A stretch of 33,957 bases of DNA. Origin: a virus (lineage: Duplodnaviria > Caudoviricetes). Under the pieces are notes generated by a model. That model did not search any database and had not been told where the DNA came from. It was given only the letters and a program-made list of their open reading frames with translations. The DNA lies in IMG/VR virus record IMGVR_UViG_3300032277_000041, positions 1 to 33,957 of that record; one strand, 5' to 3'. Below, piece after piece: positions 37-32,432 of this stretch (its first letter is position 1; every line of letters begins with the position of its first letter). A program made the position numbers and the translations under genes.

Positions 37-998
37 GCGACCGACGCGTAGACTGCCAGGTGCACATCAGGACAGTCGGCAGCACCAGCCAGCGCAGTCA
101 TCCATCCCTCAAATGTCCCGGCCTGCTCAATGCCTGACAGTAGCTGCGCCTCTCCGCTACCGGGGTCGACCTGCAGCGAGACCACATCCGTCGAGCCCAC
201 CCAGTCACTGCCGAGCAGGAATCCGTCCGCAGTCCCATCGCTGACCCATCCGCACCGGCTAGCTACCCGCTCCACCTGCATGCGCGAAGCATTGTGCGCC
301 AGCGCTGCAGTCAGGAACCGGACCACCATCGACGCATTGCCAGAGGTCACCCCAGATCCTCGATCGCCCAGCGCTGCAGTCAGTGTGCGCGCGTCGACCA
401 CCACCGACTGACGCACGACCCGCGAGTAGACCGCGCCTGTCCATCCTGGCCACTGCAGTCGGACATGGTGGTCACCCGTGTCGACGTCGAGCAGCCGACC
501 GACCGGCAGCAGCGGAACAGTCGAGACGAAGACGTCGCCCTCGCCAGTCGGGTCTGGTCCCCAGATGCCATCGGCTTTCACTGTCCACCCAGGCGGGCAG
601 GTCCAATCCGACGCCACCCACGGTAGCCCCTCGACCGGTCGGCCAGCGGTCCCATCGCCAGGAACGGAATCAGACGCGATCGACAGACCGCGCAGCGCCC
701 CTTTCACCAGTGTGCGCAGCCGCTTGACCGGTTGAGTCATTCCGCGCACCGCTGCGAGGCGCATGCAGACCGCTTCCCACCCAGGCGGATCGATCCGAGC
801 TAGCGTCGAGCATCGCTGCAGACCATCGCCCTCCATCAAGGTCGCGACGGCCTCTGCCAGTGCAGGTCGATCCATCTCGCCTGCGCGGTTGATCAGATCC
901 ATCAGGTCTGCGCGCGTCGCGGCAGCAGTGTCTGCCCCTGCGACCTCGACCCCGAGCAGCCCTGACAGCGACCGCGACTCGGTCTCGTTTTCTTGCAT
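1..998 (-). CDS. N-terminal part of a DUF927-family helicase/ATPase; joins 32826..33957 across the circular junction (~697 aa total)
   Basis: ATG at 998 is preceded by CACGGAGAAACC and reads MQENETESRSLSGLLGVEVAG. It is in frame with the 32826..33953 ORF once the 36-bp overlap is collapsed. Only the first ~280 nt were translated by hand. Confidence 0.8.
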   Translation of the reverse strand, partial: MQENETESRSLSGLLGVEVAGADTAAATRADLMDLINRAGEMDRPALAEAVATLMEGDGLQRCSTLARIDPPGWEAVCMRLAAVRGMTQPVKRLRTLVKGALRGLSIASDSVPGDGTAGRPVEGLPWVASDWTCPPGWTVKADGIWGPDPTGEGDVFVSTVPLLPVGRLLDVDTGDHHVRLQWPGWTGAVYSRVVRQSVVVDARTLTAALGDRGSGVTSGNASMVVRFLTAALAHNASRMQVERVASRCGWVSDGTADGFLLGSDWVGSTDVVSLQVDPGSGEAQLLSGIEQAGTFEGWMTALAGAADCPDVHLAVYASVASVLVNRLGTAR

Positions 999-1011
999 GG
1001 TTTCTCCGTGT

Positions 1012-1944
1012 TCAGAAGGTGTATCCGTGGAGCCCAGCTAGCTCCCAGAGGTGTCCAGTGTAGCCGCACGAGTTCGCATGATTGCACTTCGCGCGGCGCA
1101 GTTGGGATGGCTCGACGAAGAACCAGACCGACGGTCGACTGCAGGCCGGGCAGACAATGCCACGCACGATCGACCCTGACTGCCGGTCGACCTCATGGCC
1201 TCCGAGCGTCTGGCCAATCTGCCTGCGCGCGCTGCCGTCTTCCAGCAGCAGCCGTCGAACCTCTCGGTCTCGGTCTCGGTTGCTGCGCACCATACTTGCG
1301 CGCCGCTGCTCGACTTCCGCCCTGCGACGACTCGCCTGCGCTTCGCGCTCGGCTACTGCCTGGCGCGCGCGCTCGACGACTCGATCCAGATTCAGCAGCG
1401 GACCTGCAAACCGGTCGCGCGGCAGATGGATCCAGTGCGCACGCGCCGCGCCTGGTTTGGCGACAGGGACGTAGAACATCCGCGCTGGGTCGATGCACTT
1501 CTTGTCTGCCTCGGTCCCGACCGTCGACAGTACCTGCCTCATCACATCCGGCCAGACTTCGGCAGCGACTGGTCTAGCTAGCGGCAGCACCACTCGCAGC
1601 GCAGGCGCAGGTGCGTTGCCGTTCGACCGCTCCTGCATGTGCGAGAATGTCGTGTGCCCGATGTGAATCCATCGGCTCCACCGCTCGCGCGCGACCCTCG
1701 CTGGCGTTCCGTCATCGTAGTCGAGCACCAGCCACTGCACATCTGCCACGTTCCGCGATGCCCGTGTGGTCCCTGGCCTGTACGTCACCGGAGACCACAA
1801 CGCGACCCGCTTCGATCGCTCATCGCGCGAGGCGCAGTCTGCGAACCGACCCAGCCGATGCGCGATGGCCTCGATCTGCACATCTCGCGAGATTGGCTGC
1901 GTCGAACGGAGGTGCGCGAACATCGTGATCGCGCGCGTGCTCAT
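1012..1944 (-). CDS. AEP-superfamily primase/PrimPol with C-terminal zinc finger
   Basis: Motifs WLVLDYDDG (DxD), HTTFSH, LRVVLPL and CIDPARMFYVP; C-terminal CPAC...CNHANSC. Likely start at 1944 overlaps the helicase stop (ATGA). Confidence 0.8.
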   Translation of the reverse strand: MSTRAITMFAHLRSTQPISRDVQIEAIAHRLGRFADCASRDERSKRVALWSPVTYRPGTTRASRNVADVQWLVLDYDDGTPARVARERWSRWIHIGHTTFSHMQERSNGNAPAPALRVVLPLARPVAAEVWPDVMRQVLSTVGTEADKKCIDPARMFYVPVAKPGAARAHWIHLPRDRFAGPLLNLDRVVERARQAVAEREAQASRRRAEVEQRRASMVRSNRDRDREVRRLLLEDGSARRQIGQTLGGHEVDRQSGSIVRGIVCPACSRPSVWFFVEPSQLRRAKCNHANSCGYTGHLWELAGLHGYTF

Positions 1945-3782
1945 GGCGTCCATCCCCTGCGCAACCCCAGTCGCTTCATCGTCGCTGCTGCCTTCCATTC
2001 CGTGATCAATCGCTCCGCGTGGCCTCGGTTCCTCGGTTCCTGCTCGACACCCAAGCGACGCAGGTACTTTCGCTGCGGGTCGGTAACCGGTAGTCGACGC
2101 CACTCTGCTTCGCGGTTCACGATCTTCGCAGCCTGCCTGCCGACCTCTGCGACGAGGTCACCTGCAATCTCCGCAGCGACTGGTCGACTGTTCAGCAGCG
2201 TCGGTCGACGCGCGCGCGGTGGCACGATCATCGGCCAGACCTGGCCTCCGCTGGGGATCGTGTAGGCCGTCCCGTAGCTACCGAGTCCGAGTGCGCGAAC
2301 GCCATCCGGTAGATCGATCCACTCAGGTAGCCACTTGCTGCGCTTGCGCGATGGGTCGGTCACCCCTGACCGTCCACCTTCGCCAGTCGCCATCGCCCAC
2401 CCTTCCGGCGAGACCAGGAACGGACCATCGACGTTGATGATGCCGCTGCGTCGACCTGCCATCGGTGGCCTCGGTCGGTGAAGCTGCAGGTGCGGACCTG
2501 ACCCGCCGTCCTCCGTCATCGGGACGATCTTGGCATCCCACATCGAGCCCTTGGGTGCACTCCAATCGCGATCATGGTGGTCCTCGGTCGCGACCCACTT
2601 GGTCAGCCCTTCATCGTCTCGACCGATGCCGAGCGCCACGGATGAGACCAGCGAATGCACCTGCGCGGCACCGAGCACGTCCCAGACATCGAATCTGCTC
2701 TTGCCTGGGTACAGCCTCGCGCCTCGACCCACGATCTGAATATACAGCGTCTTCGACCCGCACGGTCTAGCTAGCACGATGTGCGCCGTGCGCGGCAGGT
2801 CGGTCCCCTCGGTCAGCACTCCGCAGTTGACGATGACGTCAATGTGGCCAATCTCGAATGCGCGCAGGGTCTCGCGTCGCTGGCCTGCTGGCGTCTTGCC
2901 GGTCAGGTAGGCTGCGCGGTGCGCGCCCTCGACCAGTATCGTGTGCGTCCTGATGACCTGCGCGACATCCATGCAGAAGATCAATGTCGGCTCTCCTCGC
3001 ACCTCGTCTGCAATCTGCGCGACGTGATCTGCAATGCCTGCATTCAGCAGCGCCTTCGCGAGATCTTTGTCTTCGTCGTCGCCATCCTCGCTGTTCGCTT
3101 GGTCGATGGCTGCGCGCAGGCGGGGACCGACTGCCAGCGGTCTGTCGTGAAAGTCAGGCTCTACCAGGTAGCCGCTGTCGATAGCTTCCTGCAGGCTGTA
3201 GGAGTACGCAGGGACATCACCCCACATCGCAGACAGCCGGATGGCATCTGCCCGTTCTGGCGTCGCGGTCAGACCAAGCGCAAAGCATCCGCCGCTGCCG
3301 ACCGAGTCTGCCTGCATCAGTCCAAGTGCGACGTCTCCCCAAGATCGACCGGGGACGTAGTGGTGCGCCTCGTCGAGCACGATCAGCGATGGCGACCCGT
3401 GCTGCAGGTACGACCCTGCGCGGTGCTGCATCGTCTGCACCGAGGAAAAAACAACCTGAGCCGAGCAGTCATCCGCGCGGCCTTTCACCAGGCCGGAGAC
3501 GCTAGCTAGCGACTCGAAGTGATCGAGCGCACGCACGGTCGCGAGCGGTTGCGTCACCAGTTCCTCGCGGTGTGCCAGCCAGAGCACGCGGGCGTCTGGC
3601 TTCGACTCGACTGCGCGGCGCACGCTTTCAAGTGCGGTGATCGTCTTCCCCACTCCGGTCGGCAGCACCAGCAGCGCGCGACGCTGACCGCTGCGCCAGG
3701 CGTCCCGCACACCTTCGATCGCGTCTAGCTGCACCTGTCGCAGTTGGAACGACCGCAGCGCGGGTAGTTGCTTGTTGTCCAT
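1941..3782 (-). CDS. Superfamily II DEAH helicase (YejH/RadD/Irc3-like)
   Basis: Walker A LPTGVGKT, LDEAHH, LTATP, LTEGTDLP and QIVGRGAR; RBS CACACGGAGG. Confidence 0.92.
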   Translation of the reverse strand: MDNKQLPALRSFQLRQVQLDAIEGVRDAWRSGQRRALLVLPTGVGKTITALESVRRAVESKPDARVLWLAHREELVTQPLATVRALDHFESLASVSGLVKGRADDCSAQVVFSSVQTMQHRAGSYLQHGSPSLIVLDEAHHYVPGRSWGDVALGLMQADSVGSGGCFALGLTATPERADAIRLSAMWGDVPAYSYSLQEAIDSGYLVEPDFHDRPLAVGPRLRAAIDQANSEDGDDEDKDLAKALLNAGIADHVAQIADEVRGEPTLIFCMDVAQVIRTHTILVEGAHRAAYLTGKTPAGQRRETLRAFEIGHIDVIVNCGVLTEGTDLPRTAHIVLARPCGSKTLYIQIVGRGARLYPGKSRFDVWDVLGAAQVHSLVSSVALGIGRDDEGLTKWVATEDHHDRDWSAPKGSMWDAKIVPMTEDGGSGPHLQLHRPRPPMAGRRSGIINVDGPFLVSPEGWAMATGEGGRSGVTDPSRKRSKWLPEWIDLPDGVRALGLGSYGTAYTIPSGGQVWPMIVPPRARRPTLLNSRPVAAEIAGDLVAEVGRQAAKIVNREAEWRRLPVTDPQRKYLRRLGVEQEPRNRGHAERLITEWKAAATMKRLGLRRGWTP

Positions 3783-3819
3783 TCGTCCTCCGTGTGTGCT
3801 GTCCCCAGCAGGGCTGACC

Positions 3820-3900
3820 CTATCCGCCCATGGCGAAGAAGATCAGCGAGAAAATGATGATGAGGCTAGCTGCTGCCTCGATGTGCTCTTCGGTGCTCAT
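3820..3900 (-). CDS. 26-aa hydrophobic peptide (MSTEEHIEAAASLIIIFSLIFFAMGG)
   Basis: ATGA overlap with the upstream gene's stop; single hydrophobic stretch; too short for the ORF track. Confidence 0.5.
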   Translation of the reverse strand: MSTEEHIEAAASLIIIFSLIFFAMGG

Positions 3901-4115
3901 TGTGCCCAACCTTTTGCAAAACGCGCGCCCGCTGCGCGGCACCAGGTCGCAATTTCAGAAACGTGATCGACGTTTGGTTGTTCAACAGACAATTCGCAGC
4001 GACGTGCACGCCAGTAATACTCGGCAGCTTCGTCTTCGATGACAGTGATCGGACTGTCCTGCTTTACGCCACGAAGTGAAAGGTATTGAAGAAGACCTGC
4101 GCGAGATGTTGTCAT
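3897..4115 (-). CDS. Hypothetical protein (72 aa) with its own promoter and leader
   Basis: Start MTTSRAG at 4115, after RBS ACCACGGAG, a GGGA hairpin and a TATAGT -10. Confidence 0.7.
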   Translation of the reverse strand: MTTSRAGLLQYLSLRGVKQDSPITVIEDEAAEYYWRARRCELSVEQPNVDHVSEIATWCRAAGARFAKGWAQ

Positions 4116-4215
4116 TTTGTGCTCCGTGGTTGTTAGCGCCGCCGTCCCCGGCGACACTCTTCTACTATAGGAGTCCTGAAGATCGGCAAGGAGAAATATC
4201 AGATTATTTGAAACT
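4116..4215 (-). promoter_or_regulatory. Early-type promoter with GGGA leader hairpin
   Basis: -10 TATAGT (4164-4169); hairpin AGTGTCGCCG-GGGA-CGGCGGCGCT (4135-4158); AT-rich upstream region with an ATCAGA box; no good -35 at 17-nt spacing. Confidence 0.6.
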
Positions 4216-4702
4216 ATTTCGACTGAGACTCCAACCACGCCAGCACCAGACCCAGCGCCTGCCACGCGTGCGAGGCGACGCCGTACAGTGGACCAGGTGC
4301 AGCCTTCTTTCCGACCGCAGGCCGTGCTGGCTGGTCGTGATCTGCGATGCAGGCTGCACGCACGCGCGAGTCTGCCGATCCCGTTCCTGACAGCACACCC
4401 AGCGACCGCAGCACCTGTCGACGCGTCATCGTGGAGACCTGGCAGTCGAGCGCACGCGCGGTGGATTCCATGCCGCCTGCAGCCCAGGCCGTATCCAGCA
4501 GATGACCGATCACCCCAGTGCCGAGCGGACCCATGCAGGTCGGTCGCTCGATGATGACTGGCCCTGCGTGGTCTGCCATGACGCCGACGATGGTAGCTAG
4601 CGTCGCTGCCTTGTCTGCCCGCGTGACGCAGCGCGCCTCGGTGTCGTACAGCACGAACCCAGAACACGATGGCCCTGGGTCGATGCCCAGCACGATCACC
4701 AC
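4214..4702 (-). CDS. RuvC-like Holliday junction resolvase
   Basis: N-terminal VLGIDPG, central IIE and C-terminal HAWQALG pattern of RuvC/RNase H fold. Confidence 0.8.
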   Translation of the reverse strand: MVIVLGIDPGPSCSGFVLYDTEARCVTRADKAATLATIVGVMADHAGPVIIERPTCMGPLGTGVIGHLLDTAWAAGGMESTARALDCQVSTMTRRQVLRSLGVLSGTGSADSRVRAACIADHDQPARPAVGKKAAPGPLYGVASHAWQALGLVLAWLESQSK

Positions 4703-4974
4703 TCACCTCCGTCGAGCGGTTTGAGCCCTTCGCGGATCTGATCGAGCGTGCGCAGTTGAGCTTCGGTCTGCTTCAGACGCAGCGCGCGCACCTGCTCCAA
4801 CCAGTACCGGCAGTGCCTCTCAGACGAGTCGAGCATGGCGATCGTCGAGGAGCACATCGCGTACAGCGCCAGCGCAGCATCAGCACGGTCGGGATCGAGA
4901 GGCGGATCGCCTGCCATCAGTGTCTGGAAAAGCGCCTTCGCGCGCGCGGCTTCCGCCTCTGACTCTTCCGTCAT
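4696..4974 (-). CDS. Hypothetical protein (92 aa)
   Basis: Start MTEESE overlaps the HTH gene stop (ATGA); helical character. Confidence 0.65.
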   Translation of the reverse strand: MTEESEAEAARAKALFQTLMAGDPPLDPDRADAALALYAMCSSTIAMLDSSERHCRYWLEQVRALRLKQTEAQLRTLDQIREGLKPLDGGEW

Positions 4975-5231
4975 TGCGGCTCTCCCATCACGATCCAGAC
5001 TGCGACCTGCCATGCAGTCAGTTCGGAGCGCTCCGCGACAAGGAGTGAGATCTTGCGAGCCACTGCCACCGGGCATCGCGTCGCGCCTTTCTCGATGTAG
5101 CAGATGGTGCCCTGGGACAGTCCCAGTCGCTGCGCTAGCTCAGCCTGCCGCATGGGAGGATTGCACGCCAGGCGCAGAGCCTTGATTGCCTGGCCGTGGA
5201 TGGCGTGCTGGGTTTGCTGTTCTGTTGTCAT
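4971..5231 (-). CDS. XRE/Cro-type helix-turn-helix regulator
   Basis: IKALRL...MRQAELAQRLGLSQGTICYIEKG; RBS ACACGGAGG. Confidence 0.85.
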   Translation of the reverse strand: MTTEQQTQHAIHGQAIKALRLACNPPMRQAELAQRLGLSQGTICYIEKGATRCPVAVARKISLLVAERSELTAWQVAVWIVMGEPQ

Positions 5232-5262
5232 CTGAACCTCCGTGTTCATTGAGTCCGCCGCT

Positions 5263-5371
5263 CCACTACTTCAGGAACTGCGAACGCGCAACCATAAAAC
5301 GTGCATCATTTCTATTGCGCCAGCAGTGTCTGCTGACTACGTGGACCGAGCCACGCGATGGACGCGATGGC
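5263..5371. promoter_or_regulatory. Back-to-back sigma70-like promoters
   Basis: Leftward TTGCGC (5291-5286)-17-TAGTGG. Rightward TTGCGC (5315-5320)-17-TACGTG, with inverted repeat CAGCAG-tgt-CTGCTG in the spacer. ATGGA-loop hairpin at 5350-5371. Confidence 0.6.
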
Positions 5372-5383
5372 ATCGGAGATAGA

Positions 5384-6418
5384 ATGACAATCAAGACGCC
5401 ATCATGGCTGCCTGCGCCGGTACTCGACCGGTTGACGATCTACGACACGCGAGAGGCCTGGTTGGACGCCAGGAACAAACGCATTGCAGATGGAGTCATC
5501 GGCTCGACGACTGCTGCAGCGCTGATCGCGCTGTCACCATGGCGGAACCCGTGGGATTGCTGGGCTGCCGTCCACGCACCGCACCTCATCGAGCAGACGA
5601 CCAGCGACCCGCGACTGCTAGCTAGAGGTCTCGCGCTGGAAGGATTGGCCGACCGCCTGTATCGAGAGGAGACCGGATCGGAGACGTGGGGAGTCGACGC
5701 GCACATGGCAGTGATGTCTGCCGACCTGCTGTTCTGCGTCTCGCCTGATGCCTTCTGCCGCCATCCCAGCGCAGGCGTCGGTGTCGCTGAGTACAAAATC
5801 GTGCAGCCCTGGAGGCGCGACAAGTATCCGAGCGAGTACATCGAGATCCGGTCGCTGGCTGACCTCGACGCTGCCTCGACCCTCGGTCGCTGGCCGGTAG
5901 ATCGCCAGTATGTGATTCAGTGCCTCGTGCATCTGATGGCGACCGGTGCAGACTATGTCGACCTCTTCGCTGTCTTCGCGAAGGACGTGCAGCTTGGACA
6001 CAACGTCGACGGCTGGGACTCGCCCATCGCGGTCGAAGGTACTGCGCGCATGCGGATCTGGCGCGACGCTGACATGCTCATCGACGTAGCTACACCAATC
6101 ATTGACGCGCACTTTGACATCATCAAGAACGGAAAAGAGCCAGTGACCTTTGCGCCTCCGCCACCGTGGGACACTACACGCGACCCGCTCGACGGAAAGA
6201 GAGACGCGACCGCAGACGAGGTATCGATCTTGGGTGACCTCGCAGAAAAGTCGAACCGCGCCAAGGTCGACAAGGCTGACATCTCGATGCTGCGCGCTCG
6301 GCTGCGGGACTGCATCGCGGACAGTGGCAACAAAGGCATCAGCGCTGAATCTGACAGCGGAACCAAGGTGACCGCCTCGGTCAGCAAGTCCGGTCGACTG
6401 ACCGTCAGGGGTCTGTGA
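5384..6418 (+). CDS. YqaJ/lambda-Exo-like exonuclease
   Basis: WLDARNKRI...IGSTTAAAL...SPWRNPW...RGLALE...SPDA...AEYK...YVIQ (PD-(D/E)xK); adjacent to RecT. Confidence 0.85.
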   Translation: MTIKTPSWLPAPVLDRLTIYDTREAWLDARNKRIADGVIGSTTAAALIALSPWRNPWDCWAAVHAPHLIEQTTSDPRLLARGLALEGLADRLYREETGSETWGVDAHMAVMSADLLFCVSPDAFCRHPSAGVGVAEYKIVQPWRRDKYPSEYIEIRSLADLDAASTLGRWPVDRQYVIQCLVHLMATGADYVDLFAVFAKDVQLGHNVDGWDSPIAVEGTARMRIWRDADMLIDVATPIIDAHFDIIKNGKEPVTFAPPPPWDTTRDPLDGKRDATADEVSILGDLAEKSNRAKVDKADISMLRARLRDCIADSGNKGISAESDSGTKVTASVSKSGRLTVRGL

Positions 6419-7242
6419 TGTCAAGTGTCCAAACGACGTCAGTCACGCTTCGCGCCCGCGTGCAGCGCATGGCCTCGACGATGCTGCTCGACATGGTTGG
6501 CGAGGACCGAGCGAAGGAAGCAAGCGCGCGCGTCGCGATGGCCTTCGCTGCTGCACATCGCGCAGCTAGAAACCCTGCTGACATTGAGCGCTGCTCACCG
6601 GAGTCGATCGCGTCTGCGGTTGCGCTGTCTGCGCTGACTGGCCTGATGCCTGGAGGTGCTATGCCAGGCGTCTGGCTGGTGCCTCGCAGTGGTCAGCTTC
6701 AGTGGATGATTTCGCACCGTGGACTGACCACACTGTGCAGGCGCGCTGGCTACCAACTGTCGACCTGCGTGGTCGGCACCGCAGACCACATCGCAGTCGA
6801 GTTTGGAGAAGTGACCGAGCACCGTGTCGCCGTTGGAAATGAGGCCACCGGACTGGATGACCTCGCAGGTGTCATCGTCTCCTGCAAGCGCCTGACAGAT
6901 GGCGCGGTCCTCGGTCGCTACTGGTTGTCAGGTGCTGACGTTCGCAAGCGAGCGCGCGCCAGAGGTGCTGGTCCGGTCTGGAAAACTTGGCCCCTGGAGA
7001 TGGCGCAGAAGACTGCGATCAAGTGGGCCTGCGCGAGAGGCCTGGTCCCGATTGAGTCCATCGAGCTAGACCAAGCGCTCGCAGCAGACACACGTGCAGA
7101 GATCGATGAGCGTCCACGGGTGCAACTGTCACGGCCTGCGCTGCCTGCTCCGTCTGACATCTTCGGATCGGAAGAGCCAGACGACGACCCTGCGCCGGAA
7201 CCGGTGGACGCAGAAGTGCTCGACGACCCGATGGCGATTTGA
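6418..7242 (+). CDS. recT: RecT-family ssDNA annealing protein
   Basis: CSPESI, WLVP, QWMISHRGL and W...EMAQKTAIK motifs; acidic C-terminal tail; coupled to the exonuclease. Confidence 0.85.
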   Translation: MSSVQTTSVTLRARVQRMASTMLLDMVGEDRAKEASARVAMAFAAAHRAARNPADIERCSPESIASAVALSALTGLMPGGAMPGVWLVPRSGQLQWMISHRGLTTLCRRAGYQLSTCVVGTADHIAVEFGEVTEHRVAVGNEATGLDDLAGVIVSCKRLTDGAVLGRYWLSGADVRKRARARGAGPVWKTWPLEMAQKTAIKWACARGLVPIESIELDQALAADTRAEIDERPRVQLSRPALPAPSDIFGSEEPDDDPAPEPVDAEVLDDPMAI

Positions 7243-7720: not shown

Positions 7721-7791
7721 TTTGCGACCAGGCGCGCTCCTCGGTCTCTCTCCGTGTGCTGGGTTGAGCGTGGCGGCCTATCCATCCGCTG

Positions 7792-7830
7792 CCCCATCGA
7801 CATGTCCCCCCGGTCGATGGGGTTTCCTGC
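7792..7830 (+). terminator. Hairpin, possible intrinsic terminator of the recombination operon
   Basis: CCCCATCGAC (7792-7801) pairs with GTCGATGGGG (7813-7822), followed by TTT and a T-rich tract. Confidence 0.5.
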
Positions 7831-24666: not shown

Positions 24667-24678
24667 AAAGGTGGAAAG

Positions 24679-25530
24679 TCAAGACCAGGGGAAAGTTGGT
24701 CCGTCGTTTGGCTGCGGTTTGTACGGCAGGCCGGTCGGCTTTTCTGCAGTCGATGCCTGCGCGACGTAGCTGCGCGCGAGTGCTGCGCGCGGGTTCATCG
24801 GCATCGGAGTCACCGAGGCTTCCAGCAGACGGGGCCGGACGTAGACTGCGCCCCTCGTGGAATACCTGGTGTCTTCTTCTGGCAGCGAGGCACGCGCGAT
24901 GACTGCTGCCGGTCGGAATCCGACCGAGACCGTGCGGAGTACGCCCTGCTCCAAAAGTGCTGCGACGGTCTGTGACAGTGGGTAGCTAGCCACGGGCGTC
25001 GGAATCAAGGTGCCGCGAAGCACGCCACCGGTTGCGCGCACGTTCGTCCACTTGCCGATCGGAGGCGCGGAGTAGTCGTGATTGTATGGCGCGACCGGGT
25101 TGCTCTTGAACTCGGACAGATCCCAGGTCTGCTCGACGATGTCGTCTGCCCGGTCTGGCGCTGCGTCGCTCATCACGAAGCGATAGGTCGGACGCTTTTC
25201 TTCGTCCTTGTCTCCTCGCTCCTCTTCCTCTTCGTCCATCGGCATCCCACCGAGGTCGTACCGTAGGACGGTTCTGTACGACAGGGAAAATGGCGACTCA
25301 CCGACCGAGCCTGCCAGGCGCTGCACCAGATCTGGATCGAGCAGTTGGTCAAGGTGCGGGACAGATCCACGCGCGACCGCGTACACGTCATCCGTCGTGC
25401 CACCGACAGACTCAGCCATGCGCGCGACCAGGTAGTCCTGCAGGCCCTCGCGGGTAGCCTCTCCGATCCAGCGGCGGATCGTATCAGCAGGCGTCGATGT
25501 GATGAAGATTGGTGCGGATGCGCTGCTCAT
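24679..25530 (-). CDS. HK97-type prohead protease
   Basis: DRADDIV, YNHD, PIG, SVGF and LLEASVTPMPMNPRA motifs. Confidence 0.9.
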   Translation of the reverse strand: MSSASAPIFITSTPADTIRRWIGEATREGLQDYLVARMAESVGGTTDDVYAVARGSVPHLDQLLDPDLVQRLAGSVGESPFSLSYRTVLRYDLGGMPMDEEEEERGDKDEEKRPTYRFVMSDAAPDRADDIVEQTWDLSEFKSNPVAPYNHDYSAPPIGKWTNVRATGGVLRGTLIPTPVASYPLSQTVAALLEQGVLRTVSVGFRPAAVIARASLPEEDTRYSTRGAVYVRPRLLEASVTPMPMNPRAALARSYVAQASTAEKPTGLPYKPQPNDGPTFPWS

Positions 25531-25532
25531 AG

Positions 25533-26774
25533 CTAGCCCCTGATGTTGACCGGGCGAACGACGCACCGGCAGTTGATGTCCTCGGCAGGGTCGAAGAATA
25601 GACCAGGCCCCTCGCCAGACGCACCCGAGATCGTATCGAACGGCTCGCCTGGTTGCACGCGTTCGCCGTCTAGCTCTTTGTGAGACTCGCGCACTGCGTC
25701 ATCCTGACTGGTGACCCACTCCTTTTCAAAGACGACGCCGATGTTCGCTGCCTGGTTGAATGCCATTTCCTGACCCTGCGACACGGTGCGCGCAGTTTCG
25801 GTGCGCGCGATGGTCAGTGCTCGCGCAGGCGAGAATGCATGGTCTCGAATCAGCGTGCGTTGTAGCTCACCGACTGCGACGCCGTCAGCTAGCCCAGCGC
25901 GCACGACCTTTGCGACTCGATCCTTTGTGACCTGCTGCACGTCCGCGATCATTTCCGCGATGATCTGGTAGGTTGGATCAAGGGTGGGGTCAAATTCAGA
26001 TTCCTCCATCAGCAGGCGCGCGACTACCGCGTAGGATCTGCGCACGCCTCGCTCGATCGTCTGCGCTGCAAACTGCTCTTGCACGATTGCGACCTCGACA
26101 TCATCCATCAAGATCGCGCGCAGTTCCTCGTCGCTGATGCTGCGAGAAATGGACCGAGTGCCACCTAGCACCCTTGCGATGCGGTCGTTGTACCGTGCGA
26201 CCTGCTGCGGAAAGATGCCGCTCTTGCCAGTGCGCCACTGCGCTCGGATCTGCCTCTCAGTCGGTCGCTGCACCGAGTCCAGCCAGCGCCGCCAGTAGAC
26301 GCCAGGCAGGGTGTCTGCACTGGTTCGGACCATTCGCTGCACCGGTCCGCAGTGATGGTGATGCCTGCGCTTGCGCTTGTCTGCTGCGTCCAGTTGGTTC
26401 CGCTTGCGTCGAGCCCATGCCCGTCCGCTGTCTCCGCCCCATAGATCCCAGGCGATGCGCAGCGGTCCGACTCGATCGCTGGCGGTGTCCCACTTTTCCG
26501 TGCCGCGCTGCTTCTGTGCCTCCGCGCTGAACCGCTCAAAGAATGCAAACATGTCGCGCACGTTGTCAGGGTGGATGTCCTGACCCGAGAGGATCCGATT
26601 GGCCATGTTCAGAGCCTTTCGGGTTCCTCCTCGACCGTGCTTTCTCCGCAGATCCTTTCCGCGCTTGGCTGCGCGCTGCATCTGCTTCGTAGCTACCAGA
26701 ACGATTGCGTCGTAGCGGCTCGGAGCAGAGCCCCCCTGGCGCGCGACCACCTGATACGGCATCGCCTCGGTCAC
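25533..26774 (-). CDS. Mu gpF/SPP1 gp7-like minor head protein with extra N-terminal domain
   Basis: C-terminal IARTET, KEW, D.AVRESH..LDG and EDINCRC; N-terminal IAWDLWGGDSG domain. Confidence 0.85.
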   Translation of the reverse strand: MTEAMPYQVVARQGGSAPSRYDAIVLVATKQMQRAAKRGKDLRRKHGRGGTRKALNMANRILSGQDIHPDNVRDMFAFFERFSAEAQKQRGTEKWDTASDRVGPLRIAWDLWGGDSGRAWARRKRNQLDAADKRKRRHHHHCGPVQRMVRTSADTLPGVYWRRWLDSVQRPTERQIRAQWRTGKSGIFPQQVARYNDRIARVLGGTRSISRSISDEELRAILMDDVEVAIVQEQFAAQTIERGVRRSYAVVARLLMEESEFDPTLDPTYQIIAEMIADVQQVTKDRVAKVVRAGLADGVAVGELQRTLIRDHAFSPARALTIARTETARTVSQGQEMAFNQAANIGVVFEKEWVTSQDDAVRESHKELDGERVQPGEPFDTISGASGEGPGLFFDPAEDINCRCVVRPVNIRG

Positions 26775-28186
26775 GCCTCATCCCGCAGAAGTGGTCCCAG
26801 GAAATCGAGCAGGGCTCCGACCTCAGTGCGCAAGTCGTCTTCATCGTCTGGGTCTGCGTCGGTCAGCATCTCGCGCAGCGCCTCGACCTGCGTGATGATG
26901 TCCTGCAGCGCTTCTGCGTCCGCTTCGGCTGCAGGGTCGGCTGCGACCTCGTCTGGTGCGCCTGGTGTGTTCGGGTCGATGCCAAATGAGGCGACCTCTG
27001 GTGCATCATCAAACCGCTCGAAGGCATAGGCCTCTGCTGGGCTCATGCCGTTCGCGATGTGGAGCGCGACGCGTTGCAGGCGCTCGGTCCTGCCGTCTTC
27101 CATCTCCGGCAACACATGACAGACGCGAATGCCCGTGAATCCTAGCCGGCGAACGAGGTCCGTCAGCACGTCATCGATCAGGCTAGCTAGCGGTGTCAGC
27201 GTGTCGACGATGTATGAGCGACGCTCCATCTCTGCCGTCGCGTAGTTCGCAGACTGCAGACCCAGCAGCGTCGGAGGCACACCGGTGACTGCGCTGATGA
27301 CCTTGACGGTGTACTCGCGCGAGGCCATGCCGCCTAGCTCATCGACTGTCCAGTCAAGAGCCTCGAAGGTGCCTGCGCCCGACATCACTGCGACGCCTCC
27401 GGTCTGCTCTCGGAGGATGCGATCGATCTGGGTCTGCATGTCGCGCACCTGCGGACGACCCCAAGTCGACTTCGGATCTCGCGGCACGTAGGCAGCATCT
27501 GGTCTGCCCCTGCCAGCCTTCTTTGCCATCTGCGCTGCCATAGCTACGTCGGCTGCGAGGTCTCGATCCATCGGCTCGACTTCGCCCGTGCCGTACAGGC
27601 GCTGGAGTCCACCACCGCCCGATGCGTAGCGCAGGTGAGCGATGCACTCAGGGTCGTAGGACACATCTGTGCCCTGCTGGTCGTAGACATATGCGAGCGC
27701 GCTGCCGTCGCGACCAGGTGTGATGTTGACCCGCGCTGGCTCCAGCAGCAGCATCCCAGTCGGCGCAGTGCCTGGTGCACCCTTGCCGACTGGCAACACG
27801 TATGCGTTCCCACCTGGCAGCAGGTCGGTCACAAGTTGCGTCCTGAACTGGCGCGCGGTCTGCATCGTGTTGGGTCGATCGAAAAGCTCGCAGAGCGGAT
27901 GGTCCTCGATCGTCTCGTAGCTATCGCCGTTGTACCGCTGCACCTTTAGCTGCAGTGCAGCCAGCGAGGATGCGCGGATGTCGACTGCTCGCCAGTACCA
28001 CGGGTTCGCCAGCAGTGCAGACGCGGCGCGGCGCGGGTCGTAGGCAGTCGGGACTGACTCAGCGCTCGCAAAGTCTGAGCCCGCGACGAAGGCCTGCTCA
28101 TCGCTCGGAGGCTCGACGGTCACAACAGACAACGCGCGCAGGATGCGGACCGGTAGCGACAGAGGTGTAGGTTGTGCAGTGCTCAT
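26771..28186 (-). CDS. Portal protein (HK97-type)
   Basis: HPL...PN, GNAY, LEPARV, IAHLR, GVPPTLLG and NYATAE motifs. Confidence 0.92.
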   Translation of the reverse strand: MSTAQPTPLSLPVRILRALSVVTVEPPSDEQAFVAGSDFASAESVPTAYDPRRAASALLANPWYWRAVDIRASSLAALQLKVQRYNGDSYETIEDHPLCELFDRPNTMQTARQFRTQLVTDLLPGGNAYVLPVGKGAPGTAPTGMLLLEPARVNITPGRDGSALAYVYDQQGTDVSYDPECIAHLRYASGGGGLQRLYGTGEVEPMDRDLAADVAMAAQMAKKAGRGRPDAAYVPRDPKSTWGRPQVRDMQTQIDRILREQTGGVAVMSGAGTFEALDWTVDELGGMASREYTVKVISAVTGVPPTLLGLQSANYATAEMERRSYIVDTLTPLASLIDDVLTDLVRRLGFTGIRVCHVLPEMEDGRTERLQRVALHIANGMSPAEAYAFERFDDAPEVASFGIDPNTPGAPDEVAADPAAEADAEALQDIITQVEALREMLTDADPDDEDDLRTEVGALLDFLGPLLRDEA

Positions 28187-28225
28187 GTCGCGAGCGTATC
28201 ACGGACCGGATCGAACGGCGCAAGA

Positions 28226-28254
28226 ATGCGAAAGCCCCGCGCGGGGGCGGGGCT
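28226..28254 (-). terminator. Intrinsic terminator of the moron
   Basis: On the minus strand AGCCCCGC-6-GCGGGGCT is followed by TTCGCATT. Confidence 0.6.
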
Positions 28255-28275
28255 CGGGTCGGCAGGTGGGCGCCG

Positions 28276-28512
28276 TTAGGCGTTCGTCGCTGCGTCATCG
28301 CTCATAACGTAGGTCAGCATCGCGCGCGCTGCGTAGACAAAGTTGGCCGGTGTCCGCTCATAGCCGCACACGTCGTTGAGGTAGCGCGCTGCGTCTGTGT
28401 CAAAACTTTCGACAGTTGCCCGGCTGCCGTAAATCGTACACATAGAGCGCTGACGTGTGATGAAGATACTGCGGAGGCGTCGGTATTCGGCTGCGGCTTC
28501 GGTGCGGGTCAT
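28276..28512 (-). CDS. Moron gene, hypothetical protein (78 aa)
   Basis: Start MTRTEAA; own promoter, leader hairpin, RBS and terminator; sits between terL and portal. Confidence 0.75.
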   Translation of the reverse strand: MTRTEAAAEYRRLRSIFITRQRSMCTIYGSRATVESFDTDAARYLNDVCGYERTPANFVYAARAMLTYVMSDDAATNA

Positions 28513-28610
28513 CTTGCTTCTCCGTGTGTTGTGGTGCAAGGCTCCCGCCTCGCCCTCTAAGTATGGCCCGCTATTGGTCTCCCGTCAATAGGTTTTCTGA
28601 TATTTCAGCA
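28513..28610 (-). promoter_or_regulatory. Sigma70-like promoter, GGGA leader hairpin and RBS
   Basis: AATATCAGAAAACCT; TTGACG (28588-28583)-17-CATACT; hairpin GCGAGGC-GGGA-GCCTTGC (28536-28553); ACACACGGAGAAG. Confidence 0.75.
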
Positions 28611-30388
28611 ATCAACCGCAACCGCCGCGCCTCCATGACAAGGTACCGCAGCGCGTCCCACGCGTGATCTGCCCCAACCACCTCGGTCTCGCGGTGCACC
28701 GTCAACTGCGACCGGTCGCCTGCGTTGATGTCTCGCCATGCTAGCTCTGCGATCTCTGCTCGGAGCGGTGCGGTGCTCGTATCGTCGTGGATGAGCAGGC
28801 CCGCAGTCCCGTCGCGGACTTCGAGCAGTCGGTCAACCGCTGCGAAGCCTTCGCGCCTGGCCTTGATTGCTGGTCGAGTCGGCAGCCCCATCTGAGCCCA
28901 TCGGTCACGGGCGTCTGCGTCTGCTGGGTCTGCTGCGCGGGCGTAGGGCTCTGGTGTCGATCGACCAGTCCCGTTGCACGTCGAGCACTGCTCCGCCGCT
29001 GCGAAGCGTCGATCCCACCATCGGTCCGCAGGCCAGTCCTCGCGACCAGGCCAACAGTCTGGACAGCCCTCTGCACGATGCACCGCGTAGATGTGCGCGT
29101 CGGTGTTGACGCCCGCCTCATACCTGCAGCGCAGGATGTGGAGCACCCCTCGCGGATCGACCGCACCCCAGATGTAGGCGAGCGGTGCACGGAATCCAAA
29201 ATCCAGCCCGTCGATGCGCGGCCAGTCTGCCATCTCGGATTCTGGGATCGCCTCGATGACGTGGACCGATGGGTCGTAGCTAGGATGCACCAGGCCCTCT
29301 AGCTGCACGAATTCTGCATGGCGTCGGACCCTGCGCTCGCGCTCAGTCATCGACGCGAGCCATCTGCGCATGGCGTCGCCATCGATCATCGGGTTGTCGA
29401 TCGGGTCGAGTCGGTAGACTTCCACCTCGCCTGCGCTGCGCGGCGGATCGCGGAACAGGATGTCGACGACTGCTGCCGACTTTCCGCGCGTCGGAGTGAA
29501 CGTGCCAAGCCAGCGACCGCCCTGGTCTGCGACTGCTCGCACCTGCTCGCGCAGCACGTCGACGTCTCCATGGTCTTCGTCGTTGTGCACTAGTGGAGTC
29601 GATGTGCCCTGCCATCGTTTGCTGGCGTCTGCTCCGCTGGTCGTTTTGAACAGCACGCTACCTGGCAGGCCTGCTCCGCTGCCTGGCTTCCATGTACTCG
29701 CAGTCTGCGCAGCAAATCGTGCGGACCATCTCCAGTCGCTAGGCAGGAGGCTGTCGTAAATCGGGCGCAGGTAGTCTCGCGAGTCATCGTTGGTGATCGA
29801 CCCGGCCAGCACCAGTGCCGGAGCTAGCTGCAGTCGACCCCGATGCAGACCGTTGCGACGCAGGAATTCTGCGACGTCAGGATGCGCTGCGCCCATGGCT
29901 GACATCACTCCGCAGATCGATCCAGACCAGGACTTGCTGCTGCGGTTGCCACCAAGCGCAACGAAGTACAGCGCAGACGATGCCAGAAACCGACGGATCA
30001 TCTCTAGCTGCGAGGTGCGCTCCTCCTCGACTCCGCAGGCCGGACAGCGGTGCAGGTCTCCTGACACGTGCTGCATCGCGACGCCGTGCATCGGTTGTTC
30101 GTCGGTCGGACCGGTCCTGCCACATGGCTTGCCTGCGGAGTTCATCAGCCGACCAGTCGAGGCGCGCACCCAAGTCGGATCGCTGCAGGTCTGACACTCC
30201 GGTCGCCATAGCTCGACGAACCGCAGCGGATGTCCTGCGTAGATCCTGCGCTGCTTCATCTCGTGCTCGATGAGCGCCTGGCACGCTGCCTCGATGTCGG
30301 ACGGGACTGCGCACTGGTTCTGGATGATGTAGAGCGCCCATCGGATCCGGTCGTAGTAGCTACCATCAGTCGGTGCGGATGGAATCAC
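28571..30388 (-). CDS. terL: Terminase large subunit
   Basis: Walker A GGNRSSKS, Walker B VHNDED, TFTP coupling motif, nuclease GLDFGF/ADPA/DHAWDALRY; likely GTG start at 30388. Confidence 0.9.
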   Translation of the reverse strand: MIPSAPTDGSYYDRIRWALYIIQNQCAVPSDIEAACQALIEHEMKQRRIYAGHPLRFVELWRPECQTCSDPTWVRASTGRLMNSAGKPCGRTGPTDEQPMHGVAMQHVSGDLHRCPACGVEEERTSQLEMIRRFLASSALYFVALGGNRSSKSWSGSICGVMSAMGAAHPDVAEFLRRNGLHRGRLQLAPALVLAGSITNDDSRDYLRPIYDSLLPSDWRWSARFAAQTASTWKPGSGAGLPGSVLFKTTSGADASKRWQGTSTPLVHNDEDHGDVDVLREQVRAVADQGGRWLGTFTPTRGKSAAVVDILFRDPPRSAGEVEVYRLDPIDNPMIDGDAMRRWLASMTERERRVRRHAEFVQLEGLVHPSYDPSVHVIEAIPESEMADWPRIDGLDFGFRAPLAYIWGAVDPRGVLHILRCRYEAGVNTDAHIYAVHRAEGCPDCWPGREDWPADRWWDRRFAAAEQCSTCNGTGRSTPEPYARAADPADADARDRWAQMGLPTRPAIKARREGFAAVDRLLEVRDGTAGLLIHDDTSTAPLRAEIAELAWRDINAGDRSQLTVHRETEVVGADHAWDALRYLVMEARRLRLIAEISENLLTGDQ

Positions 30389-30546
30389 TCGACCACCTGC
30401 GCACCATCGTACAGCCCTGATGCATATCCGACCTGGTAGGCCACCAGGCACATTGCTCCCAGGCTAGCTAGCCAGCACAGCATCGCGACCGCGACTGCCT
30501 GCCACAGAATGCGCGTCGCTCGATCGTGGTCGATGGTCAGCGTCAT
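30385..30546 (-). CDS. 53-aa single-TM protein between terS and terL
   Basis: MTLTIDHDRATRILWQAVAVAMLCWLASLGAMCLVAYQVG...; 4-nt overlaps at both ends (ATGA, GTGA). Confidence 0.65.
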   Translation of the reverse strand: MTLTIDHDRATRILWQAVAVAMLCWLASLGAMCLVAYQVGYASGLYDGAQVVE

Positions 30547-31112
30547 TCGACTCCGCCCCCTGCCAGCAAGCGCGCCAGTTCATCCGATGGGTTGACGGTC
30601 AGCGACCCTGGAGTCTCCACCGAGCCTGACACCTCAACCCGCTCTGCCTTCGGAATGCCTGCGCGGTCCATCACCATCTCAGCAGCACGCAACACGTCGC
30701 GGTGCGATGCCGATGGGTCAGACAGCACAGTGCGGATGCGCTTGATGGACAGCGGCAGCAGGTCATTCAACCCACGCGCTGCCATAGCTACGCGCTGGAC
30801 CTTGACCGACTCCAGTGCTGCCAGCCATGCCTCGTCGGATCGGTACCGCGAGATCGTGCACTCGTTGAGGCCTGAGATCTCTGCAGCGCTCCGTCCGGTA
30901 TGCCCTTGGATGATGGCTTCGAACGCTAGCTGCTTCTTGCCCTTGAACACCTGCGGCACGTCGACTGGCTCGATGACTGCTGCCGATGATGCGTGGCTGC
31001 GTTTTAGAAGCTGGGTGAGCGCAGTCGTGTCACCGGCTAGCGCCTTCTTGACCAGCGCTGCCTCTGCCGTTCTCGTGATGCGGTCGGTGTCCTGGTTTGC
31101 GATCTTGGCCAT
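30543..31112 (-). CDS. terS: Terminase small subunit (HTH)
   Basis: HTH (GRSAAEISGLNECTISRY) and LRAAEMVMDRAG...KAERVEVSG; upstream of terL. Confidence 0.75.
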   Translation of the reverse strand: MAKIANQDTDRITRTAEAALVKKALAGDTTALTQLLKRSHASSAAVIEPVDVPQVFKGKKQLAFEAIIQGHTGRSAAEISGLNECTISRYRSDEAWLAALESVKVQRVAMAARGLNDLLPLSIKRIRTVLSDPSASHRDVLRAAEMVMDRAGIPKAERVEVSGSVETPGSLTVNPSDELARLLAGGGVE

Positions 31113-31115
31113 CGG

Positions 31116-32432
31116 TCACCCCTCTTCGACAGGCGCGAGCGCGCCAGGACCGGGATCGACGTTGTGCGCGATTGCCCACTTCGTCCACCTGCGTCGGATG
31201 ACGTCGCAGTACCTCGGATCCAGTTCGATCAAGCGTGCGCGCTGACCGAGGCGCGCTGCAGCAATCAGCGTCGATCCCGATCCTCCGAATGGATCCAGCA
31301 CCACTGCACCAGCGTGACCCGATTGACACAGCATGTCAACGATTAGCTCAACTGGCTTCATGCTCGGATGCTCTTTGTTCTGACGCGGTGCGCTGTGCTC
31401 AAAGACCGATGATCGACCGCCACCTTTGAGTTGCTGATGACTGCCTCGCGTCCATCCGTACAAAATCGGCTCGTGCCTGTACGGGTAGTCAAGATTCATA
31501 TTGAACACTGGCCGTGATTTCATCCAGATCAACTCATGCCGAATAAAACGCAGTCCAGTTGGTCCGAGGCTATTCCAGAATGCAGACATCAACGGTCCGC
31601 TCGGACAGCAGACGTAGAACGGAGATCCGGCTACACTACGATCAACGAGAAGTCGAAACACGTCGGTCAGCAGGATCTCCAATTCGTGTGGACTCAGGCT
31701 GTCGTTAATGATCGTGAGGCCATCCCGGTTCCCGTCTGCGCGATCGCCACCGACTACGGATACCCCATACGGCGGATCCGTCCACACGGCCTCGACCAAC
31801 TCATCGTTTAGCAGCAAGTCCCACGCAGACGGGTCGGTCGAGTCGCCACACACCAGCCGATGCGGACCGAGCACATAGACCGCGCCTGGTTGACTGTCTG
31901 CCTCATCTGCTAGGTCGGGCACATCGTCATCGGACTCATCAGGGTCGACCGCTTCGTGCTCGACGCTAGCTAGCAGCGCTGCGATCTCATCTGCGTCGAA
32001 GCCCATGCCATCGAAGTCGATCCCGTTGGCATCTAGGTCTGCGAGCACTGCTGCCATCAGGGCTTCGTCATCCTGCGCGTTTTTTGCCTGGCGATTGTCC
32101 GACAGCGCGAACGCCTCGAACTGCGCCTCGGTCGCGAAGTCCACCCACATCACCGGGACAAAACCAGGCCCGATCCCATCCGGCGCATTGCGCGGGACGA
32201 ATGCTGGATCTTCCTTCAGCAGTGCGTGCATCGCGAGGCGTCGACCATGCCCTGCTGCAATCCGACGCTCCGACCGCCAGGCCGTGATCGGCACCGGAAA
32301 CCCGAACCGACGAACGCCCGCACTGAGGCGCGCGGTGCTCTCGGCACTATGGACCCGCGCATTCCGCTCCCAGGGATGCAGCGTGTCGATGTGGACCCAC
32401 TCCCAGTCCTGGCCCTTGATCTTGTTTTCCAT
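31116..32432 (-). CDS. ParB-like N-terminal domain fused to an adenine/amino DNA methyltransferase
   Basis: NARVH...FGF..PI...AGHGR...ALSDNR; HRLVCGDST, TDPPY, HPSMKPV, DPFGGSGST, ELDPRYCDVI; start MENKIK after ACACACGGAG. Confidence 0.9.
   Translation of the reverse strand: MENKIKGQDWEWVHIDTLHPWERNARVHSAESTARLSAGVRRFGFPVPITAWRSERRIAAGHGRRLAMHALLKEDPAFVPRNAPDGIGPGFVPVMWVDFATEAQFEAFALSDNRQAKNAQDDEALMAAVLADLDANGIDFDGMGFDADEIAALLASVEHEAVDPDESDDDVPDLADEADSQPGAVYVLGPHRLVCGDSTDPSAWDLLLNDELVEAVWTDPPYGVSVVGGDRADGNRDGLTIINDSLSPHELEILLTDVFRLLVDRSVAGSPFYVCCPSGPLMSAFWNSLGPTGLRFIRHELIWMKSRPVFNMNLDYPYRHEPILYGWTRGSHQQLKGGGRSSVFEHSAPRQNKEHPSMKPVELIVDMLCQSGHAGAVVLDPFGGSGSTLIAAARLGQRARLIELDPRYCDVIRRRWTKWAIAHNVDPGPGALAPVEEG

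What the first reader, a model, noticed from the sequence alone, without database searches (positions are those of the whole stretch)
260..31972. About ten-fold genome-wide enrichment of TAGCTA/(G)CTAGCTAG(C) in a phage carrying a CTAG-family methyltransferase
Seen: a manual scan found at least 39 TAGCTA, e.g. 260, 1575, 2768, 3503, 5619, 11090, 12364, 15185, 21261, 24983, 27184, 30465 and 31967. About 4 are expected from base composition if GC is ~64% (my estimate). About 25 of them overlap CTAG. They sit inside genes on both strands and force rare codon pairs such as CTA-GCT and GTA-GCT. Known: CTAG is normally among the most avoided tetramers in GC-rich bacteria, and HIP1 in cyanobacteria is a methyltransferase-associated over-represented palindrome. 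Inference: a HIP1-like motif gained through methylation-linked repair or mutation bias, or selected as a self-marking or protein-binding site.
Basis: partly seen in the sequence, partly recalled or inferred. Interest (0 to 1): 0.78.

Follow-up and report, generated by a model that had tools for sequence, protein, structure and literature searches.

The report
Unrelated phages stamped with TAGCTA
This marine phage carries the DNA word TAGCTA about 18 times more often than its codon use predicts, unusually evenly spaced and apparently at the cost of changed amino acids; three unrelated phage groups over-use the same word, which likely marks a signal read by a host DNA-handling enzyme that probably spares or repairs phage DNA.

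Summary
TAGCTA occurs 39 times; in genes 36 vs 2.0 under a codon-preserving shuffle. Sites are under-dispersed (2 gaps <300 bp vs 11 expected) and leave a mark on the proteome. The N4-cytosine methyltransferase is CTAG-family by homology. It lies in a block missing from a syntenic relative with zero CTAG and zero TAGCTA. It is probably permissive, not the cause: 14 sites lack CTAG, the dyad is AG|CT, and none of 152 other loci with this methyltransferase family approaches this density. Three unrelated podovirus groups (22 contigs) show the same graded word, AGCTA(G>C>W), with no N4/N6 or C5 DNA methyltransferase found in five records and no protein shared with the window. No bacterial genome among about 700 searched in three phyla shows it. 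Best reading: a selected, strand-read signal for an unidentified host enzyme (Chi-like or self mark). A HIP1-type repair ratchet is the main rival. Host and reader are unknown. Ten paper searches and five look-ups in this scan's notes found no report of this word in phages; the scan did note a different evenly spaced palindrome elsewhere.

The parts
260..31972 (.). 39 TAGCTA palindromes (consensus S-TAGCTA-S) at 260,1575,2275,2768,3503,4594,5619,6087,7531,8280,8590,11090,11613,12141,12364,12932,13466,13907,15185,15759,16137,17244,18589,19770,20148,21261,21642,22439,24983,25530,26690,27184,27541,27918,29277,30357,30465,30785,31967
   Evidence: (71 of 78 flanking bases are C or G)
798..33025 (.). 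32 one-strand sites AGCTAG/CTAGCT outside TAGCTA, e.g. 5135, 6564, 7064, 9873, 23651, 33018. Merged with TAGCTA they give 66 sites with no gap above 1332 bp
   Evidence: That they fill the gaps is only suggestive (p=0.058)
9557..10630 (+). Beta-class N4-cytosine methyltransferase (TSPPY; DPFAGTG), CTAG family by homology; no cognate endonuclease in the window; contains no TAGCTA
   Evidence: PF01555; 45.6% over 338 aa to the pFZ1 enzyme; same best PADLOC profile PDLC03283
7936..10630 (+). Block of four small orphan ORFs plus the methyltransferase, not found in the syntenic, motif-free relative L415
   Evidence: ORF 8973-9257 has no relative among 1.84 billion representatives
31116..32435 (-). 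ParB-like domain fused to an N6/N4 methyltransferase beside the terminase genes; a 70% identical copy sits in a relative without the motif
   Evidence: L278
7239..7502 (+). Winged helix-turn-helix protein, the only recognisable stand-alone DNA-binding regulator; also in the motif-free relative (45%)
   Evidence: (no fold match at E<=0.001; MarR/AspA-like rows)
23079..24602 (-). Major capsid gene: 7 synonymous opportunities, 0 TAGCTA; lies in the longest strict gap (22439-24983)
33922..33957 (+). 36-bp terminal overlap with bases 1-36; the primase/helicase gene appears to run across it, so the window is read as a closed circular assembly of 33,921 bp (the tool's completeness estimate is nevertheless 47%)

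Best explanation
The phage genome is studded on both strands with the word AGCTA(G/C), peaking as the palindrome TAGCTA, and this word is likely a selected signal read by a host DNA-processing enzyme that would spare or repair DNA carrying a site every 0.5-1.3 kb. Shown: the enrichment, the even spacing, the amino-acid imprint, the same graded word in three unrelated phage groups, and its absence from close relatives.
For: 36 vs 2.0 under the codon null. Even spacing survives a null that redraws sites among the 130 codon opportunities: CV p=0.0026; gaps <300 bp 2 vs 11.4, 0 of 20,000 draws. TAGCTA ranks 1 of 199 hexamers for lack of short gaps. Motif-compatible tripeptides: 53 window-only vs 22 relative-only, rank 3 of 2,075 word classes. 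Sites need mixed and multiple changes, e.g. TCG-TAC to AGC-TAC and VESYP/VDSYP in the relatives vs VASYP. TAGCTA is the top hexamer in 4 of 5 unrelated records and second to AGCTAG in the fifth, 3.7-8.3-fold. Half-site weights AG>=AC>=AW>S,T in 6 of 6 genomes, with a good multiplicative fit in G316 and G320. No protein shared across groups; DnaB/Erf, PolA/gp2.5 and T7-type replication versus primase/RecT here. Relatives: 7 TAGCTA and 6 CTAG in 166 kb; L415 lacks the methyltransferase block and has 0 CTAG. Phages are known to over-represent a host word, Chi (PMC3784561).
Against: No reader or host was identified. A Chi-like word should also be enriched in the host, yet none of 251+251+201 genomes reached the phage's 1.15 TAGCTA per kb, and AGCTA was at most 1.6-fold in 57 bacterial regions. 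The sites are uniform along the genome, unlike lambdoid Chi, which clusters and runs at about 0.2 per kb. Even spacing holds only here (p=0.006) and weakly in G317 (p=0.025), not in the other four records. The multiplicative fit is poor here and in G317 (deviance 53 and 44 on 10 df, largely from the avoided SAGCTS and AAGCTT classes). Realised sites are not significantly less hostable in the relative than unrealised ones (16 of 27 vs 37 of 71, p=0.34). A 95% identical strain lacks one of two sites. The other groups were found by searching with the motif, and their records are 61-91% complete.
Confidence: 0.42

Rival explanations
1. HIP1-type ratchet: a methylated C in a G-meC context biases mismatch or heteroduplex repair, so new sites are fixed without benefit until about one per kb. 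The phage's CTAG enzyme supplies AG-meC-TAG here; host enzymes would do so in the other groups.
For: Elhai's model predicts saturation near one site per 1000 nt (PMC4390886 section 18); observed mean gap is about 870 bp with short gaps missing. The CTAG-forming half-site has the highest weight, most of all here (7.6 vs 2.4-4.4). The enzyme is present here and absent from the motif-free relative L415. All four lineages encode single-strand annealing proteins.
Against: The model predicts GCTAGC, but GCTAGC without AGCT occurs only 4 times, and 14 TAGCTA lack CTAG. 72 viral and 80 bacterial/archaeal loci with this methyltransferase family hold 0-8 TAGCTA each in up to 21 kb. Multi-step and non-synonymous gains. 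No PF01555/PF00145 in five signature records. The G-meC repair system is hypothetical in that paper.
Confidence: 0.25
2. A phage-made dimeric protein (the winged-HTH at 7239 or an orphan ORF of the gained block) coats the genome at these sites for packaging, condensation or regulation.
For: 10-bp palindromic consensus with graded flanks. Gap peak at 460-580 bp, 18 of 66 vs 5.6 (site set chosen after seeing the data). Orphan ORFs arrive with the signature. An unchecked note of this scan (e1-5985876) reads another evenly spaced phage palindrome this way.
Against: Same graded word in three groups with no detectable shared protein. The winged-HTH is also in the motif-free relative. Sites show no bias to gene starts and no fixed period (p=0.29).
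Confidence: 0.15
3. By-product of restriction-site avoidance: nearly all other palindromes are purged and sequence collects in the few allowed words.
For: SAGCTS 2 vs 67 here. The other groups have CCGG at 0 and 29-49 of 64 hexamer palindromes at 0-1 copies.
Against: The alternatives are not forbidden: TCGCTA 13 vs 13, TGGCTA 8 vs 10.8. Other tolerated palindromes rise only about 2-fold. Avoidance gives neither even spacing nor amino-acid change toward a word. Phage C75C1, a relative of group 1 that avoids CCGG/GGCC, lacks the signature.
Confidence: 0.08
4. The sites are decoys or landing pads for RptR, the repressor of type I restriction islands whose minimal site is TAGCTA.
For: Identical 6-bp site (PMC12255303). 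Group 1 has TAGATA up 1.6-2.1-fold and TAGGTA at 0.7, echoing RptR's tolerance.
Against: TAGATA is 0 vs 3.3 in this genome. RptR is mainly gammaproteobacterial and needs two adjacent sites to repress. Titrating it would be expected to switch defence on. No PF24718 match in five phage records (where the controls also gave nothing) nor an RptR match in 151 genomes of the G002 phylum (no positive control). The weak hit to ORF 8973 (E=0.11) is not confirmed by the family profile.
Confidence: 0.04

Closest known systems
HIP1 and alternative HIPs of cyanobacteria (PMC4390886, PMC5861425)
   Same: Short palindrome 15-fold or more over expectation, about one per kb, inside genes, non-random spacing, overlapping the target of an orphan methyltransferase.
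   Different: Found in phage genomes and not in any bacterial genome searched; different word; core dyad AG|CT is not the methyltransferase's CTAG; local under-dispersion at about 0.5-1 kb rather than 10-90 kb periodicity; present in records without the enzyme.
Chi sites over-represented in lambdoid phages (PMC3784561)
   Same: A phage over-uses a short, likely strand-read DNA word; seen there in phages that have their own recombinase but no RecBCD inhibitor, and this phage has a RecE/RecT pair.
   Different: Both strands used about equally, uniform along the genome, 5-15 times denser than 0.2 per kb, and no host with the word enriched was found.
M.MthZI / M.MjaI / Haloferax HVO_0794 family of CTAG N4-cytosine methyltransferases (PMC5867850)
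   Same: Beta-class order, TSPPY motif, 45.6% identity over the whole length to the pFZ1 enzyme, same best PADLOC profile.
   Different: Orphan in a phage; specificity untested; other carriers of the family do not accumulate TAGCTA.
RptR operator (PMC12255303)
   Same: Same 6-bp palindrome TAGCTA.
   Different: RptR sites are A/T-flanked tandem repeats in one promoter; these are C/G-flanked, single, and in coding DNA genome-wide.
DNA uptake sequences of Neisseria and Pasteurellaceae; mycobacteriophage stoperators (both recalled, not read)
   Same: Dispersed motifs; uptake sequences imprint the proteome.
   Different: Those are 9-13 bp and non-palindromic, and belong to a host chromosome or are read by a phage repressor.

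Membership tests
HIP1-like highly iterated palindrome | Palindrome over-represented 15-fold or more after compositional control | tested here: met
   36 vs 2.0, about 18-fold; threshold from the abstract of PMC5861425
HIP1-like highly iterated palindrome | Density near one per kb, within and between genes | tested here: met
   1.15 per kb; 36 of 39 in genes
HIP1-like highly iterated palindrome | Contains the target of a methyltransferase of the same genome | tested here: inconclusive
   25 of 39 overlap CTAG, 14 do not; specificity known only by homology; no such enzyme found in five other signature records
HIP1-like highly iterated palindrome | Sites conserved between related genomes beyond synonymous background | tested here: inconclusive
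   L271 keeps 1 of 2 sites. None of 80 displayed variant rows hits 8 cores, about 1.4 expected; most rows were not shown
HIP1-like highly iterated palindrome | Sequence GCGATCGC or relative in a cyanobacterial chromosome | tested here: not met
   Different word, phage genome; CGATCG not enriched under a Markov null
Chi site | Strand-read word over-represented in the phage | tested here: met
   AGCTA 2.2-4.2-fold in six genomes, multiplicative half-site weights
Chi site | Over-represented and polarised in the host chromosome | tested here: inconclusive
   Not found in the genomes searched; true host unknown
Chi site | Concentrated between origin and packaging site in the phage | tested here: not met
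   Uniform over ten bins, p=0.92
Chi site | Attenuates RecBCD/AddAB nuclease activity | not testable with these tools
   Needs biochemistry
M.MthZI-type CTAG N4-cytosine methyltransferase | Full-length homology and beta-class motif order | tested here: met
   Equating the pFZ1 protein with M.MthZI is my inference
M.MthZI-type CTAG N4-cytosine methyltransferase | Methylates C in CTAG | not testable with these tools
   Indirect only: CTAG tolerated here, near zero in relatives. Homology often mispredicts specificity (94 of the viral enzymes, 96%, in PMC8919816)
RptR operator | Two or more TAGCTA-type sites close together in a promoter | tested here: not met
   Shortest gap 108 bp; 36 of 39 in genes
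RptR operator | RptR (PF24718) encoded by phage or host | tested here: inconclusive
   Not found in phage records; host unknown

The most novel reading that the evidence does not exclude
An undescribed, widespread bacterial system reads AGCTA(G/C) on incoming or replicating DNA as a licence, and unrelated marine and freshwater phages have converged on writing it across their genomes, more densely than any bacterium examined and even by changing their proteins. It would be a positive counterpart to restriction-site avoidance.
Probability: 0.3. Interest if true: 0.88.

Novelty: new variant of a known kind. Interest (0 to 1): 0.72.

Why it matters
Phage sequence evolution is usually told as avoidance of host words. 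Here four unrelated lineages gain the same word, strongly enough to alter proteins, while close relatives lack it. That points to a host process not yet named and gives a direct handle on it: a six-base bait for pull-down, a synonymous recoding test, and a signature for grouping uncultured phages by host system. If the ratchet rival is right, this small genome with a motif-free sister lineage is a clean test of the methylation-directed repair model proposed for HIP1.

Tried and rejected
Phage primase recognition site: set aside because the four lineages have different primases or rely on the host's; no solved-structure relative of the primase; no paper held all five terms. Insertion-sequence footprints or slippage of (TAGC)n: coding sites align codon for codon with relatives, and CTAG-centred words are not enriched by themselves. 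C-to-T deamination from CAGCTG or TGGCCA: substitutions are of all kinds, TGGCCA is at expectation, and CAGCTG is enriched in G320. ParB-methyltransferase as cause: a 70% copy in L278 has 1 TAGCTA in 21 kb. Fixed period or helical phase: none significant. Family-wide lineage-specific words: in 16 relative loci the best hexamer has z below 7, against 21.6 here. G001:C10, a contig with (CTAG)n runs inside a bacterial bin: 49% GC and eukaryote-like, treated as likely contamination. High-count bacterial genomes proved AT-rich and near expectation. Host assignment failed: no cultured relative of the capsid; endolysin relatives carry no taxon names; capsid hits of 31-32% in one genome, G102; the nearest methyltransferase with a taxon name is 65%, from a 'Deltaproteobacteria bacterium'. 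Helicase scan of viral contigs found nothing. The search for C75C1's host returned unrelated papers. Strain-variant tables were cut to 40 rows each. The promoter scan beside the G316 runs found no sigma-70 match. Weak singles L314/L439, L217 and L433 (3.0-4.5-fold) were not counted as signature groups. No complex prediction was run.
Full report
THE GENOME. The window reads as a closed circular assembly of 33,921 bp: a 36-bp terminal overlap, with the primase/helicase gene apparently crossing it; the tool's own completeness estimate is 47%. It is a siphovirus-type phage with terminase, portal, protease, capsid, tail tube, tape measure, amidase, RecE/RecT-like pair, primase, helicase and two N6/N4 methyltransferases. 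The best-matching runs are labelled microbial-mat and marine. The host is unknown.

THE OBSERVATION. TAGCTA occurs 39 times against 4.25 from base composition. In 40 called genes it occurs 36 times against 2.03 in 1000 synonymous-codon shuffles, maximum 8. AGCT overall is at expectation (109 vs 116) but sorted: CAGCTG 0 vs 24, GAGCTC 0 vs 11. 71 of 78 flanking bases are C or G. The signal recurs in L001 (100% identical) and in a 95% identical contig, L271, so it is not an assembly artefact.

THE WORD IS CENTRED ON AG|CT, NOT ON CTAG. Fourteen TAGCTA have no CTAG. Of 41 GCTAGC, 25 overlap TAGCTA, 12 more overlap AGCT and only 4 stand alone. The 26 CTAG sites outside AGCT are randomly spaced. 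Fitting independent weights to the two halves gives AG 7.6, AC 3.0, AW 1.9, S 0.43, T 0.96. The fit is imperfect here (deviance 53 on 10 df), largely because SAGCTS is avoided, 2 vs 67. I infer a strand-read word AGCTA(G>C>W), with the palindrome as two copies back to back.

SPACING. Only 2 of 39 gaps are under 300 bp (11.2 expected, p=5e-5) and CV is 0.67 (p=0.005); there is no fixed period (p=0.29). Both results survive redrawing the sites among the 130 codon positions that could hold the word (p=0.0026; 0 of 20,000). TAGCTA ranks 1 of 199 comparable hexamers for lack of short gaps and 3 of 199 for CV. Adding AGCTAG gives 66 sites, no gap above 1332 bp (p=0.0004), and 18 gaps at 460-580 bp vs 5.6; that set was chosen after seeing the data. 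The two longest strict gaps hold the N4C methyltransferase and the major capsid gene.

COST TO PROTEINS. At orthologous codons the relatives often encode other residues (VESYP/VDSYP vs VASYP, AVESQ vs AVASQ, WFKTR vs WLATR), and some sites need a serine codon-family switch. Against the closest relative, motif-compatible tripeptides are 53 window-only vs 22 relative-only, rank 3 of 2,075 word classes; the classes ranked 1, 2 and 4 appear to code the same peptides. A second test was not significant: 16 of 27 realised vs 37 of 71 unrealised sites could not be hosted by the relative's peptide, p=0.34.

RELATIVES. Twenty-one loci at 77-88% capsid identity hold 7 TAGCTA and 6 CTAG in 166 kb. Fourteen terminase loci hold no TAGCTA, and 26 further portal loci hold 0-1 each. 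These sets overlap and are not independent. L415 is syntenic from RecE to the neck genes, lacks the block 7936-10630, and has 0 CTAG and 0 TAGCTA in 15 kb. This is the only relative in which the block's position could be read.

THE METHYLTRANSFERASE. The 9557 protein is 45.6% identical over 338 aa to the enzyme of Methanothermobacter plasmid pFZ1, which sits beside a MjaI-family endonuclease. Both fit PADLOC profile PDLC03283 best. PMC5867850 (passages) describes M.MthZI as a characterised 4mC CTAG enzyme; equating it with the pFZ1 protein is my inference. PMC8919816 (passages) warns that homology often mispredicts specificity. Carrying the family does not make the word: 72 viral and 80 prokaryotic loci have 0-8 TAGCTA each. 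I read the enzyme as lifting a CTAG ban.

OTHER PHAGES. Three motif-seeded scans gave 210 loci of 3 kb or more. After dropping the seed sites, 35 rows, with duplicates, reached 3-fold and 6 sites. They fall into three groups of 18, 2 and 2 contigs plus three weak singles. In five records of these groups TAGCTA is 3.7-8.3-fold under the codon null, ranking first in four and second in one, with the same gradient. They are Erf/DnaB, PolA and T7-type podoviruses at 43-51% GC. They share no detectable protein with the window or across groups and have no PF01555 or PF00145 match (61-91% complete). G320 has a Methyltransf_24 protein of unknown substrate. They lack CCGG entirely and most other palindromes. 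Even spacing appears only in G317 (p=0.025). Cultured relatives C75C1 and LUZ100 lack the word.

HOSTS. TAGCTA reached at most 0.19 per kb in 251 genomes of G002's phylum (Myxococcota by record title), 0.28 in 251 of G311's (Victivallales by title, so likely Verrucomicrobiota) and 0.5 in 201 of G004's (Planctomycetia by title). The top ones are AT-rich and near expectation. AGCTA was at most 1.6-fold, median 0.8, in 57 bacterial regions vs 2.2-4.0 in the phages. These are samples, and the true hosts may lie elsewhere.

MECHANISM. A word read on DNA in both orientations, gained convergently, costly, and spread for coverage is best explained by selection for a host reader that spares or repairs DNA near a site (0.42). 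The precedent is Chi, which phages without RecBCD inhibitors over-represent (PMC3784561, abstract and Results part 1); the missing host enrichment and uniform spread count against literal Chi. The main rival is Elhai's G-meC repair ratchet (PMC4390886, passages and section 18 part 1), which predicts the density and spacing but the wrong palindrome (0.25). A phage-made binder (0.15), avoidance by-product (0.08) and RptR decoy (0.04; PMC12255303, passages and section 25) follow. PMC5861425 was seen as abstract and outline only. No supplements were read.

NOVELTY. 'TAGCTA' with 'phage' returned only the RptR paper; with 'restriction enzyme', none. Broader searches listed nothing on this word in phages. 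The library lacks most subscription journals. This scan's notes held no record of the word; one note describes a different, 14-bp evenly spaced palindrome. Verdict: real and strong; it works like HIP1 or Chi but fails a defining test of each. New variant of a known kind; interest 0.72.

Noticed in passing
G316:C1 29420 and 29700; G317:C1 36225; L200:1930; L213:3379 and 3663: The longest (TAGC)n runs of the other phage groups are mostly intergenic. In G316 they lie upstream of small genes and end in TACAAT; G316 and G317 share TAGCTAGCTATCTATC although they share no detectable protein. No sigma-70 match was called.
   Followed up: partly
G317 and G320 (L382-L383, L388-L389): Extreme palindrome avoidance: 46 and 49 of 64 hexamer palindromes occur 0-1 times; CCGG is absent from all five records G316-G320.
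   Followed up: partly
window-wide: Near-absent palindromes suggesting host restriction targets: CAGCTG, GAGCTC, CCTAGG, TCCGGA, CCCGGG, GGGCCC at 0; CCGCGG and CTCGAG at 1.
   Followed up: no
window 7936-9439: Four small ORFs with no family match, not found in the syntenic relative; 8973-9257 is a singleton among 1.84 billion representatives. Candidates for anti-defence or DNA-binding functions.
   Followed up: partly
G001:C10 (L176, L177): A 224-kb contig in a Myxococcota bin whose first 40 kb has 49% GC and eukaryote-like sequence with (CTAG)n microsatellites; likely contamination.
   Followed up: partly
L275 (portal relative): Besides CTAG, this relative nearly lacks GATC and AATT (ratios 0.12 and 0.15), a different avoidance set within the same phage family.
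   Followed up: no
window 28246-28632: The small ORF between portal and terminase is skipped or replaced in marine strain contigs of runs X5 and X8.
   Followed up: no
window 4140-4220: The one AT-rich intergenic patch between the divergent gene arms, a likely promoter or origin region; it holds no TAGCTA.
   Followed up: no
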